Shown here: in pieces, positions 7,981 through 11,618 of the stretch
Numbering within the stretch: the first letter of the stretch is position 1
How the letters are laid out: the number at the start of each line of letters is the position of its first letter
Virus record (IMG/VR): IMGVR_UViG_2740892230_000034
Length of the DNA: 24,793 nucleotides
Strand: one strand, 5' to 3'
Source of the DNA: a virus
Lineage: Duplodnaviria > Heunggongvirae > Uroviricota > Caudoviricetes
Notes under the pieces: generated by a model
What the model saw: the letters and a program-made list of their open reading frames with translations, nothing else
The model's database searches: none
Told to the model about the DNA's origin: nothing
Position numbers and translations under genes: made by a program

Positions 7981-8151
7981 CTGGGCATTAGCTCTTTCCT
8001 CTCTCAGGCTTTTAGCCAGTCGCTGCACAATCGCAGAGTTGATAGAAATTCCATCCATTTCAGCAACACGTCTAATCTCCTCCTTCATTCGCGCTGGCAA
8101 ACGAAGCTGGAAACTTTGACTTTTACGACCTGTGTAAAGCACATCTTTCAT
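7978..8151 (-). CDS. arc: Arc-like ribbon-helix-helix repressor (57 aa)
   Basis: MKDVLYTGRKSQSFQLRLPARMKEEIRRVAEMDGISINSAIVQRLAKSL, an RHH fold pattern (beta strand FQLRLP then two helices). Shine-Dalgarno GGGAGA 7 nt upstream of ATG 8149-8151. First gene of the minus-strand arc-ant operon. Confidence 0.8.
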   Translation of the reverse strand: MKDVLYTGRKSQSFQLRLPARMKEEIRRVAEMDGISINSAIVQRLAKSLREERANAQ

Positions 8152-8262
8152 AAGTAATTCTCCCACAATGATACCAACTTGGTTCTAGAACCAATTTAAC
8201 ACCATTTATTTTGATGTCAAGTTGGTGCTATTGTTTAGCGAACATCTTTACGTTGAGGTCAT
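8152..8262. promoter_or_regulatory. Divergent promoter/operator region between arc and the mnt-like gene, with a 16-bp perfect palindrome
   Basis: TTGGTTCTAGAACCAA at 8179-8194 is a perfect palindrome. A second 8-bp inverted pair is CCAACTTG (8174-8181) / CAAGTTGG (8218-8225). Confidence 0.55.
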
Positions 8263-8583
8263 ATGAGCAAGTTCCCTAGTCATGAAATGGATAGGTTCAA
8301 TATCAGGCTTCCTGCAGGAATGCGGGATGCTATAGCTGAACGAGCCAAACGTAACGGCAGATCAATGAACTCAGAGATTGTTCAGATACTGGAAGATGCC
8401 TTGAATGCAGAAAATACACTCGGGGAAATAGCAGATAAAATCAACAGCGTCTCGGTTCCGCTAAATGTTGATGCGCTAGTTCAACTTCAAGCCCAGGTTA
8501 TCGCCATGCAAAAAGAAATACAGGAAAAGTTCAGAGAGCAGAACGAAAAGTTGAGAGAACTGCTAAACAAAAAAACCACCTGA
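8263..8583 (+). CDS. Mnt-like ribbon-helix-helix repressor with C-terminal coiled coil (106 aa)
   Basis: FNIRLPAGMRDAIAERAKRNGRSMNSEIVQILEDAL closely resembles the P22 Mnt DNA-binding domain as I recall it (FNFRMPMEVREKLKFRAEANGRSMNSELLQIVQDAL), and the protein ends KKTT. It is divergent from arc, which is the P22 mnt position. Confidence 0.8.
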   Translation: MSKFPSHEMDRFNIRLPAGMRDAIAERAKRNGRSMNSEIVQILEDALNAENTLGEIADKINSVSVPLNVDALVQLQAQVIAMQKEIQEKFREQNEKLRELLNKKTT

Positions 8584-8606: not shown

Positions 8607-8616
8607 TTGGACCATA

Positions 8617-8645
8617 TTGACTACTCATAAAATGAGATCAATATT
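8617..8645 (+). promoter_or_regulatory. Candidate sigma70 promoter for the YjzC-like gene, with an operator-like palindrome in the spacer
   Basis: TTGACT (8617-8622), a 17-bp spacer containing CTCAT-AAA-ATGAG (8624-8636), then a weak -10 AATATT (8640-8645). Confidence 0.35.
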
Positions 8646-8681
8646 TAATCGCCCAATAACGGGTGCATGTTGAGGTATATC

Positions 8682-8861
8682 ATGGCGAAAAAACCAGGTG
8701 AAAACACAGGAAAAAACGGCGGAATATACCAAGAAGTTGGCCCGCGCGGAGGTAAGAAAGACAATTTTGCCACCGTCAAGGACAACGAAAGGCTTCCGCC
8801 AACAACAAAGCCAGGTCATGGCTGGGTATTAGATAAGCGAACTCCAGACAGCAAAAAGTAA
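8682..8861 (+). CDS. Small YjzC-like protein (59 aa), function unknown
   Basis: MAKKPGENTGKNGGIYQEVGPRGGKKDNFATVKDNERLPPTTKPGHGWVLDKRTPDSKK. The pattern G-x-Y-x-E-V-G...P...W resembles the YjzC-like small protein family (from memory). Shine-Dalgarno GAGGT 5 nt upstream; own terminator downstream. Confidence 0.65.
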   Translation: MAKKPGENTGKNGGIYQEVGPRGGKKDNFATVKDNERLPPTTKPGHGWVLDKRTPDSKK

Positions 8862-8867
8862 TAATCA

Positions 8868-8890
8868 AGCCGGGTCACTCCGGCTTTTTG
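8868..8890. terminator. Bidirectional intrinsic terminator shared by the convergent YjzC-like and HExxH genes
   Basis: Stem AGCCGG (8868-8873) / CCGGCT (8880-8885) with loop GTCACT, followed by TTTTT. The minus-strand stop codon (8875-8877) lies in the loop. Confidence 0.7.
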
Positions 8891-9240
8891 ATATGTCGCT
8901 CGCAGAACTCAACAAGCCTGCTCATTAAGTAGCAGTAAGTCTCGTTGGCTCTTCCTGGTTCAACATCAACGCCGACCCTTGAGCAGATATCGAATGCCAT
9001 GTGAGCGCACTCATGGGCAATAGTAGATAGTTTACCATTGAACACACCTATCACATGCAAAACACCATTCTCGCTGCTCATTGTATGAGACGCTCCGTTG
9101 GCATCCGAGTCCTGCACGTCCACGCCAAGTTTTTGATGCAGGCGTTGCCATTCTGGAAAGTCTCTGCAAAACACAATTGTACCGCTCTCAAAGAGCGGAA
9201 CGAGCATTTTTGGTACGTTTCCAATGTTAACTTTTTTCAT
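8875..9240 (-). CDS. Hypothetical HExxH-motif protein (121 aa), possibly a minimal zincin-like metallopeptidase
   Basis: MKKVNIGNVPKMLVPLFESGTIVFCRDFPEWQRLHQKLG...KLSTIAHECAHMAFDICSRVGVDVEPGRANETYCY... contains HECAH with a Glu about 20 residues downstream. Shine-Dalgarno AGGA upstream of ATG 9238-9240. No confident family assignment. Confidence 0.6.
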   Translation of the reverse strand: MKKVNIGNVPKMLVPLFESGTIVFCRDFPEWQRLHQKLGVDVQDSDANGASHTMSSENGVLHVIGVFNGKLSTIAHECAHMAFDICSRVGVDVEPGRANETYCYLMSRLVEFCERHIKKPE

Positions 9241-9270
9241 GGTATCCTGCTCAAAACTAAGGAGGTTGGT

Positions 9271-9498
9271 GTGAAGCGATGGTTCCTCATAATTACTGTT
9301 TTCGCGATCATTTACACTATTTTCCCTGCATTAAAAGCACCAATGCAAATAATTTCACTAGCAATAATTTCGATTAGTGCTTTCATTGCAGTAGCCGTAC
9401 TTGTGTTTAAGGTTTTAAAGTTTTTAGTTTGGCTATCAAAAGATGATGGATGCAAAGTTCATCAAGAAAAAGAAGGCAAAATAACCAAAGTTGACTAA
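9271..9498 (+). CDS. Small hydrophobic membrane protein (75 aa, about 2 predicted transmembrane helices)
   Basis: Strong Shine-Dalgarno AAGGAGG (9259-9265) 5 nt upstream of GTG 9271. VKRWFLIITVFAIIYTIFPALKAPMQIISLAIISISAFIAVAVLVFKVLKFLVWLSKDDG... Its stop overlaps the stop of the convergent gp16-like gene. Confidence 0.5.
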   Translation: MKRWFLIITVFAIIYTIFPALKAPMQIISLAIISISAFIAVAVLVFKVLKFLVWLSKDDGCKVHQEKEGKITKVD

Positions 9499-11618
9499 CT
9501 GTCACTAGCGAGCCATGTAATAATCCCCGTGCGGGCAATGGTTTTTGCTTCATCTGTTGATAAGGTTTTCTCCCATCTCTTAAATGCCCCAGATTGCATC
9601 AGTTTCCTTTCTATTGCGCGTCTCACTTCTGCTCTGTCTACTGGTGCGTTTTGCAGGCGAAATAGCATTGATTTAAACTCAGGAGAAGATAGCAGAGCAT
9701 CAGCAGCCTTTATCCTGCTTGTTTTCCCTGACATCAATGCAGACGTTATCACCCCTGTTGCACCTACACCAGGGAGACCAGATAAGCTTGTAATACCTTC
9801 CGCCGCAGCAGCTTTTGAGGCTATTCCATAAATTTTTGCGAGACTACCCTTTTCTTTCAGAAAGTTATTAACTTGCTGATCCACAAGACTACTAGCATAC
9901 TGCTTACCAGTATTGAGTCTATTCATAGCCTTAGCTGCTTGATAAATCGTATCAAGGCGCTTTGATGCATCTGTGCCAATAGCATCACGGAGAGCCTTCA
10001 TATTGGCCCCATTGCGTGACATTCCGTTATACCATTTTACAAATCCATCAACTCCTAATTGCTGACCAGGTGATTTGGCATAGCTGGTAAATGCTTTATT
10101 CATTGAGGTGAGCGCAACTTCCTGCCGCATATCCTTTGGAATCGACTTCATTAATTGCCTAAAGTCGCCACCGTTTCCTTTTGCCATATTAACAACAGCA
10201 CTTTCAACTTTTGGAATTGCTGATTGCTGAAGTTTTCTACCCAAGACGGTTACAGCATCATCTTCAATGGATTTTCGTTTTTTTACCAACTCCTTACCAA
10301 GCGTCCATAATTCCCCTGCGCCATATTTTTCTGCGACAGCCTGTTGGTCATCTGTTATGGCTGCATATAACTTTTTAAGAACACCTGTTTCTTCATCCTT
10401 GAATGGACCAGAGCCTTTGCCAATAGCTTGTCCAACCTGCTTTCTAGCGAGATCTAAACGCCCATACGTTGGCAAGGTGTTTGGATCAAGTCGGTTCAAT
10501 GTCCGCTTCATTATTGGAGATAATTCATCAATTCCACCTATGTCATCAGCAAAATCCTCTAAAAAATTCAATGTATTAGTTGCCTCAATCCGGTCTCTTA
10601 CAGGAACCTTTTCGGCAATTTTGTTGTAGATGTTATCTGACTGATTTTGTAATGATGAAATGGTTTTATCAAAATTATCTGCAAGCCTGTCAGAAACCAG
10701 TTGCTTATCAAGGCTTCCCCCAAATGAAGTTATCATTTCATCAGCTTTTCTTCCTAATTCAGTAATAAAACGCTTATGCGCCTCACTAATCTCTGTTCCA
10801 GGGAGACTTGCCACTGCATTATCAAGAGCCCTGACAGCAGGATTATTAGAGATCATGCCTGGAGTGGCATAATTTTCCAGTTCTAGCTCACGAATAGCAT
10901 TTATCGCGTTAAAATCAGGATTAACTTCATCGGCGAAATCTTGAATAGCTCGTTGCCCGCCGATAAATTTATTGTCCATTGCGCCAGCAGCTTTCTTTAA
11001 CGTTGCTTTAGATGATTTACTACCCATCCCTACGGATGAGCGATAAATATCTCCGGCACTATTTTTAATTTTTCCTGCAATCTTCCCAAGCGCTGGACCA
11101 ACAATCTCGGCTACAGGGCCAGCCACAGCGCCAATAGCAGCGCCGGAAGCAACATCGCTATTTGTTCCATTGGCTACAATAGCCCCTTCTCCAGCACCAA
11201 GCCCTGCGGCGGCAGCCAGCCTTGCCGCCCCTTTCGGAACCTGAGAAATAATCCCACCACCACTAACAAATGGCGCTGCTTGTCCAACGAACTCACCAAC
11301 ATCTTGTGCGGTTGATGGTTTTGCCGCTAACTTCTGCTGTAGAGACTGAATTGCGGCTTGCTCTTCTGGTGTCATGTCCTGAAACAGGCCAACACCTTTA
11401 CCAACATCCATCAATCCACTGAGAACGCCATACATAAAACGGTCGAAGCCGTTAGCATTATTAACAACATTTTCCTGTCTGGAATTTTCCTCTAGTGAAA
11501 CCAAAGGAGATTGCTGCTGTTCTGGTTGTGCATCAAGCACAAAGCCATCAGGAAGCTGTGAGTTATCAGGCTGATTATCGAGAACAAATCCTTCGGGTAA
11601 ACCTACATCGGTTGCCAT
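9495..11618 (-). CDS. Ejection (injection) protein, P22 gp16-like (707 aa)
   Basis: Last of three consecutive ejection-protein genes in conserved P22-like order. Ala/Gly-rich with a long open frame; overlaps the upstream gene end. Confidence 0.8.

What the first reader, a model, noticed from the sequence alone, without database searches (positions are those of the whole stretch)
8875..9240. Small HExxH protein: possible minimal zinc metallopeptidase
The 121-aa protein contains HECAH followed about 20 residues later by Glu, the minimal Glu-zincin arrangement. At this size it could be a regulatory protease (ImmA/IrrE-like) or an anti-defence or antirestriction-type metalloprotein. I cannot place it in a named family from sequence alone.
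Basis: inference. Interest (0 to 1): 0.55.

Follow-up and report, generated by a model that had tools for sequence, protein, structure and literature searches.

The report
Phage hkcC: small zinc-protease-like gene
The 121-residue protein is real: it is hkcC, a function-unknown gene of P22-like phages that the reference P22 annotation omits, and it belongs to a large phage-only family whose only invariant residues form a zinc-protease active-site motif, although what it cuts is still unknown.

Summary
Window 8875-9240 (minus strand) encodes a 121-aa protein with HECAH at residues 76-80 and Glu100 exactly 20 residues after the second His.

It is a genuine gene. It is 100% identical to hkcC ("unknown") of phages HK620 and P22. 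It is under strong purifying selection, and it is unannotated in the curated P22 records.

A profile search finds 547 cluster representatives, nearly all 105-140 aa. Across 120 of them (23-45% identity) the only invariant columns are H76, E77 and E100. H80 is kept in 119 of 120.

The family is phage-restricted and sits co-oriented inside late operons. Most members lie at the lysis-terminase junction. Here it follows the ejection-protein genes.

In enterobacterial phages it is usually paired with the convergent 59-aa gene orf59a, but the pairing is not obligate.

Best reading: a minimal gluzincin-type metallopeptidase made late in infection, accessory, with an unknown target. The ImmA/IrrE, SprT and antirestriction placements are not supported.

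The parts
8875..9240 (-). hkcC coding sequence (121 aa plus stop), a putative minimal gluzincin-type metallopeptidase
   Evidence: ORF listing. 100% identical to HK620 hkcC and to the unannotated P22 ORF. PHROG 1365, E=1.4e-39. Purifying selection. AF2 pLDDT 89.
9001..9015 (-). Codons for H76-E77-C78-A79-H80 (the HExxH motif: two zinc ligands plus the catalytic base)
   Evidence: Sequence read directly. Invariant in A2. H76 and E77 invariant and H80 in 119 of 120 sequences in A4. Lies on predicted helix 71-88.
8929..8949 (-). Codons for A98-N99-E100-T101-Y102-C103-Y104. E100 is the putative third zinc ligand. This is the 'NExxCY' start of the glutamate helix.
   Evidence: E100 is invariant in 120 representatives and Y104 is kept in at least 90%. 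The H-to-E spacing is 20 in 81, 19 in 31 and 17 in 22 of 150 sequences. The predicted helix 100-116 starts here. Aligns to thermolysin E166.
9245..9248 (-). Shine-Dalgarno-like AGGA, 4 nt upstream of the ATG
   Evidence: Read from the sequence. The same 'CAGGATACCATG' is present in L012. This is a weak element and its role is an inference.
8867..8886 (.). GC-rich hairpin that overlaps the hkcC stop codon. It is a bidirectional terminator shared with the convergent orf59a.
   Evidence: The terminator scan finds it on both strands. Annotated as t_mnt in P22 and as 'bidirectional terminator tORF59A' in HK620.
8682..8861 (+). orf59a (59 aa, weakly YjzC-like). It is a convergent antisense gene that usually travels with hkcC. 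In P22 it lies downstream of mnt.
   Evidence: P22 annotation. Present and convergent, with a 19-43 bp gap, in 76 of 87 loci. 61-78% identical partners lie next to 43-62% identical hkcC homologues. PF14168 E=0.0017, below the cut-off.
9271..9498 (+). Flank, not part of the unit: a divergent 75-aa predicted membrane protein that occupies the position of P22 sieA. It marks the upstream mosaic boundary of the hkcC unit.
   Evidence: phrog_7294, E=1e-47. Homology to P22 and to 80 IMG/VR loci breaks at 9264-9282.

Best explanation
The ORF is hkcC, an accessory gene of P22-like phages.

It encodes a soluble, single-domain protein of about 13.6 kDa. The protein belongs to a large, phage-specific and so far uncurated family with a minimal gluzincin active site. 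His76 and His80 on one helix, plus Glu100 at the start of the next helix, would bind one zinc ion. Glu77 would act as the general base. The beta-sheet in front of the HExxH helix would form the upper rim of an open substrate cleft.

The gene lies in the sense orientation inside the late transcription unit, here between the ejection-protein gene 16 and the tailspike gene. It is therefore made late in lytic growth, when it most likely cleaves a specific cytoplasmic protein or peptide of the host or the phage.

What is shown: the gene is real, the motif is invariant, the fold topology is predicted, the family is phage-restricted, and it is placed in late operons.

What is inferred: zinc binding, peptidase activity and late expression. 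The substrate is unknown.
For: - Gene reality: conserved length and sequence down to 23% identity. dN/dS is 0.09-0.37 with saturated dS.
- Active site: H76, E77 and E100 are the only invariant columns among 120 representatives, and H80 is kept in 119 of 120. The His-to-Glu spacing of 20 and the 'NE' dipeptide match thermolysin's HExxH...NExxSD. phmmer aligns residues 67-113 to thermolysin 133-179.
- PDB profile search: the best hits are zinc peptidases aligned over the sheet plus the HExxH helix (myroilysin E=0.03, astacin-type BMP1, peptidyl-Lys metalloendopeptidase). All are weak.
- Structure: AF2 pLDDT 89 and pTM 0.83, with the order beta, beta, helix, beta-hairpin, HExxH helix, Glu helix.
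- Late-operon placement: hkcC is co-oriented with gene 16 and the tailspike gene in the window and in HK620. The paralogue orf-129 lies between the lysis genes and the terminase genes in ST64T. In 25 diverse clusters the downstream gene is on the same strand in 22. Downstream genes are mainly small and large terminase or portal, and upstream genes are mainly endolysin and spanin. Other members lie between the major head protein and an adaptor, or between tail tube and tape measure genes.
- Accessory status: the gene is a sharply bounded mosaic unit. It is present in only 131 of 5,426 complete E. coli genomes.
Against: - No biochemical data exist.
- No Pfam or NCBIfam peptidase model matches.
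- Late expression is inferred from gene order, not from transcript data. The Shine-Dalgarno-like element is weak.
- HExxH also occurs in non-peptidase enzymes.
- The curated P22 record places the sieA promoter over the first codons of the ORF.
Confidence: 0.6

Rival explanations
1. hkcC and orf59a are a two-gene module with self-immunity logic. Orf59a is expressed from the prophage (in P22 from Pmnt, together with mnt). The late-expressed HkcC protease removes or processes it, or Orf59a inhibits HkcC, once the phage goes lytic.
For: The pair is convergent with a 19-43 bp gap and shares one bidirectional terminator in 76 of 87 loci. It recurs as a unit in unrelated backbones: P22-like ant morons, four distinct siphovirus tail regions, and a metagenomic contig where the hkcC homologue is only 43% identical. 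The orientation is always hkcC sense and orf59a antisense to the late genes. The partners co-diverge.
Against: hkcC occurs without orf59a in several settings:
- 11 IMG/VR P22-like loci, where a 74-aa membrane protein takes its place.
- Locus L110.
- The ST64T-type paralogue.
- All 12 distant loci tested.

YjzC-type genes also occur alone as antisense morons, for example in Clostridium phage phiCT9441A, which has no zincin neighbour. Linkage may simply reflect a recombination unit built around a shared terminator.
Confidence: 0.12
2. HkcC is a counter-defence protease. Made together with the late proteins, it cleaves a host immune or abortive-infection factor, for example a sensor triggered by terminase, portal or capsid proteins.
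For: The family is phage-restricted, accessory and mosaic. It sits in known moron hot-spots, typically right before the terminase and portal genes. The catalytic residues are invariant, which implies an enzymatic role rather than a structural one.
Against: There is no direct evidence. The gene has no match in the PADLOC defence library, and I found no paper linking it to immunity. Known anti-defence genes are usually early genes (my own knowledge). The position may reflect only the tolerance of these junctions to insertions.
Confidence: 0.15
3. HkcC is a morphogenetic or packaging helper that processes or trims a virion, terminase or lysis protein.
For: Distant members lie between the major head protein and an adaptor, directly before portal, or before the terminase genes, in tightly packed co-directional operons with overlapping stops and starts.
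Against: The gene is patchily distributed among closely related P22-like phages and behaves as a swappable mosaic unit. The P22 literature lists it only as a gene of unknown function in the ant moron. The one proteolytic step in P22 assembly that I recall, gp7 processing, is attributed to host OpdA; this is my recollection and was not checked here.
Confidence: 0.1
4. HkcC is an ImmA/IrrE-like regulatory protease that cleaves a repressor of the adjacent immI region (Mnt or Arc) or the prophage repressor.
Against: There is no Peptidase_M78 match, either for this protein or for 120 relatives. HK620 keeps hkcC although immI is reduced to remnants. The paralogue and most family members have no repressor neighbour. 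Late-operon orientation is unlike the divergent repressor-protease pairs of ImmR/ImmA (my own knowledge).
Confidence: 0.04
5. The ORF is not a gene. It is an antisense reading frame that overlaps the sieA promoter and the mnt terminator, which is how the curated P22 annotation effectively treats it.
For: The curated P22 records carry only a promoter and a terminator here.
Against: There are hundreds of diverged homologues of the same length with invariant catalytic residues. Purifying selection is strong. The fold prediction is confident. Homologues occur in unrelated genomic contexts that have no sieA or mnt. The original P22 sequence had errors here, giving 72% identity in AF217253, which plausibly explains the omission.
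Confidence: 0.01

Closest known systems
hkcC of coliphage HK620 (AAK28904) and P22 hkcC, as named in the epsilon34 genome paper (PMC2629481)
   Same: The protein is 100% identical and sits in the same position, between gene 16 and the tailspike gene, next to orf59a and the bidirectional terminator.
   Different: Nothing differs; it is the same gene. The literature calls it 'unknown'. No zincin assignment turned up in the papers I searched.
Orf-129 of ST64T and phage L, gene 70 of epsilon34, orf47 of ST104 (paralogues in P22-like phages)
   Same: Same family (38-40% identity; hhalign E=3e-40), with the same HECAH...ANETYCY motif. They are also late-operon genes.
   Different: They lie between the lysis cassette and the small terminase gene and have no orf59a partner. 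Some phages carry both copies.
Thermolysin-type gluzincins (MEROPS clan MA(E), e.g. M4)
   Same: HExxH plus a Glu 20 residues after the second His within an 'NE' dipeptide. phmmer aligns the two active-site helices.
   Different: This protein has 121 aa against about 316 aa and has no C-terminal subdomain. The position of thermolysin Asp170 in NExxSD is taken by Tyr104. Sequence similarity is not significant (E=0.1).
Minigluzincins (proabylysin, projannalysin, selecase) and other mini-zincins of about 100-115 aa, such as Acel_2062 (PDB 3e11)
ImmA/IrrE (Peptidase_M78) and SprT/Wss1-like small HExxH proteases
   Different: The window protein has no Pfam match. The third ligand here is Glu, whereas Wss1/SprT use a third His (my own knowledge). 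There is no cognate repressor partner, and the gene sits in a late operon.

Membership tests
PHROG 1365 / hkcC family (function unknown) | Full-length profile match and identity to named hkcC genes | tested here: met
   phrog_1365 E=1.4e-39 over residues 1-121. 100% identity to HK620 hkcC.
Gluzincins (zincin metallopeptidases with a Glu third ligand) | An HExxH motif conserved in the family | tested here: met
   H76 and E77 are invariant and H80 is present in 119 of 120 sequences.
Gluzincins (zincin metallopeptidases with a Glu third ligand) | A conserved Glu about 18-25 residues after the motif, on the following helix | tested here: met
   E100 is invariant. The spacing is 20 in 81, 19 in 31 and 17 in 22 of 150 sequences. 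N precedes the Glu in 99 of 150. Helix 100-116 starts at E100.
Gluzincins (zincin metallopeptidases with a Glu third ligand) | A zincin fold with the three ligands converging on one metal site | tested here: inconclusive
Gluzincins (zincin metallopeptidases with a Glu third ligand) | Zinc binding and peptide-bond hydrolysis | not testable with these tools
   This needs purified protein, metal analysis and activity assays.
Minigluzincins (proabylysin / projannalysin / selecase) | Detectable sequence or structural homology to the solved members | tested here: not met
ImmA/IrrE (Peptidase_M78, PF06114) | A match to the Pfam model | tested here: not met
   No hit for the protein at E<=10. None of 120 relatives hits at E<=0.01.
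ImmA/IrrE (Peptidase_M78, PF06114) | An adjacent cognate repressor conserved with the protease | tested here: not met
   Arc and Mnt neighbours occur only in some P22-like and siphovirus contexts. They are absent in HK620 (remnants only), in the ST64T paralogue and in distant loci.
SprT-like / Wss1 (PF10263) | A match to the Pfam model | tested here: not met
   The window protein has no hit. Only 2 of 120 relatives hit, best E=1e-4.
Putative phage metallopeptidase (PF18894) | Profile similarity to a PF18894 protein (the 212-aa neighbour in L008) | tested here: not met
   hhalign probability 2%, E=0.022, over 47 columns around HExxH only.
Known anti-phage defence proteins (PADLOC) | A match to any PADLOC model | tested here: not met
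   0 families at E<=10.
Plasmid antirestriction metalloproteins (ArdC-type) | Occurrence on conjugative plasmids or in leading regions | tested here: not met
   Only 8 of 72,556 plasmid records match. Six are non-mobilisable, and several of these are about 30-40 kb and probably P22-like episomes, which is an inference from their size.

The most novel reading that the evidence does not exclude
The hkcC family is a widespread class of late-expressed phage proteases that disarm host immunity triggered by late proteins such as terminase, portal or capsid. Alternatively, in enterobacterial phages it acts as the lytic-phase antidote to the prophage-expressed small protein Orf59a. Either reading would be a protease-based self-immunity or counter-defence mechanism hidden in an unannotated gene of the model phage P22.
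Probability: 0.15. Interest if true: 0.75.

Novelty: new member of a known kind. Interest (0 to 1): 0.4.

Why it matters
P22 and HK620 are model phages, yet this conserved gene is missing from the reference P22 annotation and carries no function anywhere.

Assigning it to the zincin peptidases gives a concrete and cheap experiment: H76A, E77A or E100A point mutants in a genetically tractable phage.

It also defines a family of at least 547 sequence clusters that the searched libraries leave uncharacterised: PHROG 1365 lists it as unknown function, and Pfam and NCBIfam have no match. Its constant placement inside late operons suggests a recurrent, unrecognised proteolytic step late in infection.

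If the target turns out to be a host defence factor or the linked Orf59a, the finding would add a new protease-based strategy to phage-host conflict. If not, it remains a routine annotation upgrade.

Tried and rejected
- **pid ORFan.** I suspected from memory that the ORF might be the P22 'pid' ORFan. It is not: pid is 86 aa and lies between orf25 and orf80.
- **SieA paper.** The 2024 P22 SieA paper mentions orf59a once and this ORF not at all.
- **Family libraries.** Pfam, NCBIfam and PADLOC gave only noise for the protein; the lantibiotic hits are caused by the HEC string.
- **Structure libraries.** Foldseek against PDB found nothing. The afdb50 library was not available.
- **PF18894.** The PhageMetallopep protein next to a homologue is unrelated.
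- **YjzC neighbours.** The YjzC-family gene of Clostridium phage phiCT9441A has no zincin neighbour. The Brochothrix NF5 hit lies in an early region.
- **Literature.** The search for 'YjzC' returned only a yeast strain name. The search for 'hkcC' returned mostly unrelated acronyms.
- **Locus finder.** The search for related loci failed on alignments that were too diverse, including the only attempt on genome contigs. The first viral scan returned only near-identical copies.
- **N4 vRNAP.** The profile hit to the HExxH subdomain of the N4 virion RNA polymerase is insignificant, E about 0.9.
- **Fused model.** I did not attempt a fused HkcC-Orf59a structure prediction, because the tool returns no interface metrics and would probably refuse a non-window sequence.

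Full report
**What is in the window.** The window is a P22-like (Lederbergvirus-type) prophage. The late operon runs on the minus strand: terminase, portal, coat and the ejection-protein genes, ending with a gp16-type gene at 9495-11618. It is followed by an immI-like region with Mnt-like and Arc-like repressors and two antirepressors, then a tailspike gene, an O-antigen acetylase and an integrase.

The finding's ORF, 8875-9240 on the minus strand, is present exactly as described. It is 121 aa with an ATG start. HECAH is residues 76-80 (window 9001-9015). Glu100 (8941-8943) lies 20 residues after His80.

**Identity of the gene.** Window 8608-9273 is about 98% identical to phage P22. In the curated P22 record this stretch carries only the mnt terminator and the sieA promoter, with no CDS. 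Other records annotate the ORF as hypothetical. HK620 names it hkcC, 'unknown', and its protein is 100% identical to the window protein.

[quoted passage not shown] The UAB_Phi20 paper lists hkcC as 121 aa, 'Unknown' (PMC4837284).

The original P22 sequence (AF217253) gives only 72% identity here. That points to sequence errors and probably explains why the gene never entered the reference annotation. My initial suspicion that this was the 'pid' ORFan was wrong.

**Is it a real gene?** Yes.
- A word-indexed search finds 32 relatives down to 43% identity, nearly all of about 120 aa.
- An exhaustive profile search finds 547 cluster representatives at E<=1e-3 and 151 at E<=1e-10. Almost all are 105-140 aa single-domain proteins.
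- Codon-level comparison of nine homologues gives dN of 0.13-0.7 with saturated dS. dN/dS is 0.09-0.37 wherever it can be computed.

**The motif.**
- In 18 homologues at 43-77% identity, H76, E77, H80 and E100 are invariant, together with the surrounding 'STxAHECAHxAFDxC' and 'ANET.C.L'.
- In 120 representatives at 23-45% identity, the only invariant columns are H76, E77 and E100. H80 is present in 119 of 120, and G49 and Y104 in at least 90%.
- Of 164 sequences of at least 100 aa, every intact one keeps HExxH and the downstream Glu. The exceptions are truncated, frameshifted or fused entries.
- Among the 150 sequences that match the motif pattern, the His-to-Glu spacing is 20 in 81, 19 in 31 and 17 in 22. 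Asn precedes the Glu in 99.

This matches the thermolysin-type HExxH...NE arrangement. phmmer aligns residues 67-113 to thermolysin 133-179, which puts H76/E77/H80/E100 on H142/E143/H146/E166, although only at E=0.1-0.7. The family profile's best PDB sequence hits are zinc peptidases aligned over the sheet plus the HExxH helix (myroilysin E=0.03, BMP1/astacin, peptidyl-Lys metalloendopeptidase), again weakly.

**Structure.** AlphaFold2 with the 18-sequence alignment gives pLDDT 89 and pTM 0.83. The elements are E11-13, E21-25, H28-37, E49-56, E59-66, H71-88 (HExxH) and H100-116, which starts at E100. This is the order expected for a zincin N-terminal subdomain followed by a lone 'glutamate helix'.

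- Foldseek against PDB finds nothing.
- BFVD contains many phage proteins of 105-160 aa with TM 0.6-0.83. Almost all are uncharacterised, and a few are auto-labelled SprT-like, metalloprotease or IrrE.
- Coordinates are not exposed by the tools, so the metal-site geometry could not be measured.

**Curated families.** Pfam, NCBIfam and PADLOC do not match the protein. PHROG 1365 (unknown function) does, at E=1.4e-39. Of 120 relatives only two touch SprT-like (best E=1e-4) and one touches DUF5700. PF18894 'PhageMetallopep', which is encoded next to one homologue, is unrelated.

**Genomic niche.** In 80 IMG/VR P22-like loci, homology to the window starts at 9264-9282, exactly at the divergent start of the sieA-position gene. 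It ends at either about 8567 or about 8853. hkcC is therefore a sharply bounded mosaic unit, with or without orf59a.

In HK620 the gene lies between gene 16 and the tailspike gene 9, on the same strand, with immI reduced to remnants. Late transcription therefore has to pass through hkcC to reach gene 9. This is an inference from gene order.

A paralogue at 38-40% identity lies between the lysis genes and the small terminase gene. It is ST64T and phage L Orf-129, epsilon34 gene 70 and ST104 orf47. Some phages carry both copies.

Closer homologues also sit in siphovirus prophages of Rosenbergiella and Klebsiella and in metagenomic contigs, between the tail-tube/YdaY genes and the tape-measure gene.

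For 25 non-redundant clusters of distant members:
- The downstream gene is co-directional in 22.
- Downstream neighbours are mainly small and large terminase subunits and portal.
- Upstream neighbours are mainly endolysin and Rz-like spanin.
- Others lie between the major head protein and an adaptor, or next to an ejection-type protein and portal.

The family is practically absent from plasmids: 8 of 72,556 records match, and several of those are about 30-40 kb and probably P22-like episomes. It occurs in 131 of 5,426 complete E. coli genomes, always labelled 'hypothetical protein'.

**The orf59a partner.** orf59a (8682-8861, plus strand) converges on hkcC, and the two share the hairpin at 8867-8886. 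That hairpin scores as a terminator on both strands and overlaps the hkcC stop codon.

The pair is present, convergent with a 19-43 bp gap, in 76 of 87 loci. It persists next to hkcC homologues of only 43-62% identity in unrelated phage backbones, with Orf59a 61-78% identical.

The pairing is not obligate:
- 11 P22-like loci replace orf59a with a 74-aa membrane protein.
- L110 lacks it.
- The ST64T paralogue and all 12 distant loci tested lack it.

Orf59a is weakly YjzC-like (PF14168, E=0.0017, below the cut-off). A YjzC-family gene is an independent antisense moron in a Clostridium phage head operon, with no zincin neighbour. The link may be functional, or it may be a by-product of a shared terminator.

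**Interpretation.** The best-supported reading is a minimal gluzincin-type zinc metallopeptidase made late in lytic growth, accessory, with an unknown substrate (confidence about 0.6).

The invariance of the catalytic Glu77 as well as the three ligands argues for catalysis rather than mere metal binding.

The rivals differ mainly in the proposed target. They are Orf59a (self-immunity), a host defence factor, a virion, packaging or lysis protein, or a repressor (ImmA-like). The last is the least supported. 'Not a gene' is refuted.

**Novelty and score.** The gene itself is known by name, but its function is not. I found no published zincin assignment. It is a new, uncurated family within a well-known enzyme kind, so I rate it 'new member of a known kind'.

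Interest is moderate (0.4). It is not surprising in kind, but it is a large phage-wide family with an easily testable prediction in a model phage.

Noticed in passing
window 9271-9498 (+): A 75-aa predicted membrane protein (phrog_7294) occupies exactly the position of P22 sieA, and homology to P22 breaks at its start codon. Other P22-like loci have still other small membrane proteins on either side of hkcC (L012: about 62 aa and 74 aa). This looks like a swap site for small inner-membrane morons, which are candidate superinfection-exclusion genes.
   Followed up: partly
window 8682-8861 (+); L111 2486-2653: orf59a is a weak YjzC-like protein. A YjzC-family gene also lies antisense inside the head-morphogenesis operon of Clostridium phage phiCT9441A. 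This suggests that YjzC-type genes are recurrent antisense morons in phage late operons.
   Followed up: partly
P22 records BK000583, AF527608, AB426868 (L001 2768-3133): The curated P22 annotations lack hkcC even though the ORF is identical to HK620 hkcC. The original P22 sequence AF217253 matches at only 72% here, which is consistent with sequencing errors.
   Followed up: yes
L105 3001-3390 (ST64T orf-129) and epsilon34 gene 70, phage L Orf129, ST104 orf47: A 38-40% identical paralogue of hkcC lies between the lysis cassette and the small terminase gene. Several phages (Phi75, UAB_Phi20, ST160, SE1Spa) carry both paralogues.
   Followed up: partly
L110 4349-4885 (-); L106 209-562 (-): Antisense morons lie directly upstream of hkcC homologues in other P22-like prophages: a ClpP-family protease gene (PF00574) in L110 and a Rap1a (type VI immunity family) gene in L106.
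   Followed up: no
hkcC residues C25, C78, C86, C103 (window about 8932-9168): Four cysteines are invariant in the close subfamily. One of them lies inside HECAH. Cys at that position occurs in about 56 of 150 family members, and 'CY' after the Glu is widely conserved. Possible explanations are a second metal site, a cysteine switch or core packing. This could not be resolved without model coordinates.
   Followed up: no
PDB chains 9pnq, 11gp etc. (N4 virion RNA polymerase residues 2188-2234): The family profile weakly touches (E about 0.9, not significant) the C1 subdomain of the ejected N4 vRNAP, which a 2026 paper reports to carry a conserved HExxH. N4-like Klebsiella and Pseudomonas phages also encode stand-alone family members.
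   Followed up: partly
window 6461-8583: The immI-like region here has two different antirepressor-type genes (7278-7988 and 6461-7240), an Arc-like gene (7978-8166) and an unusually long 106-aa Mnt-position ribbon-helix-helix protein (8263-8583, phrog_1287).
   Followed up: no
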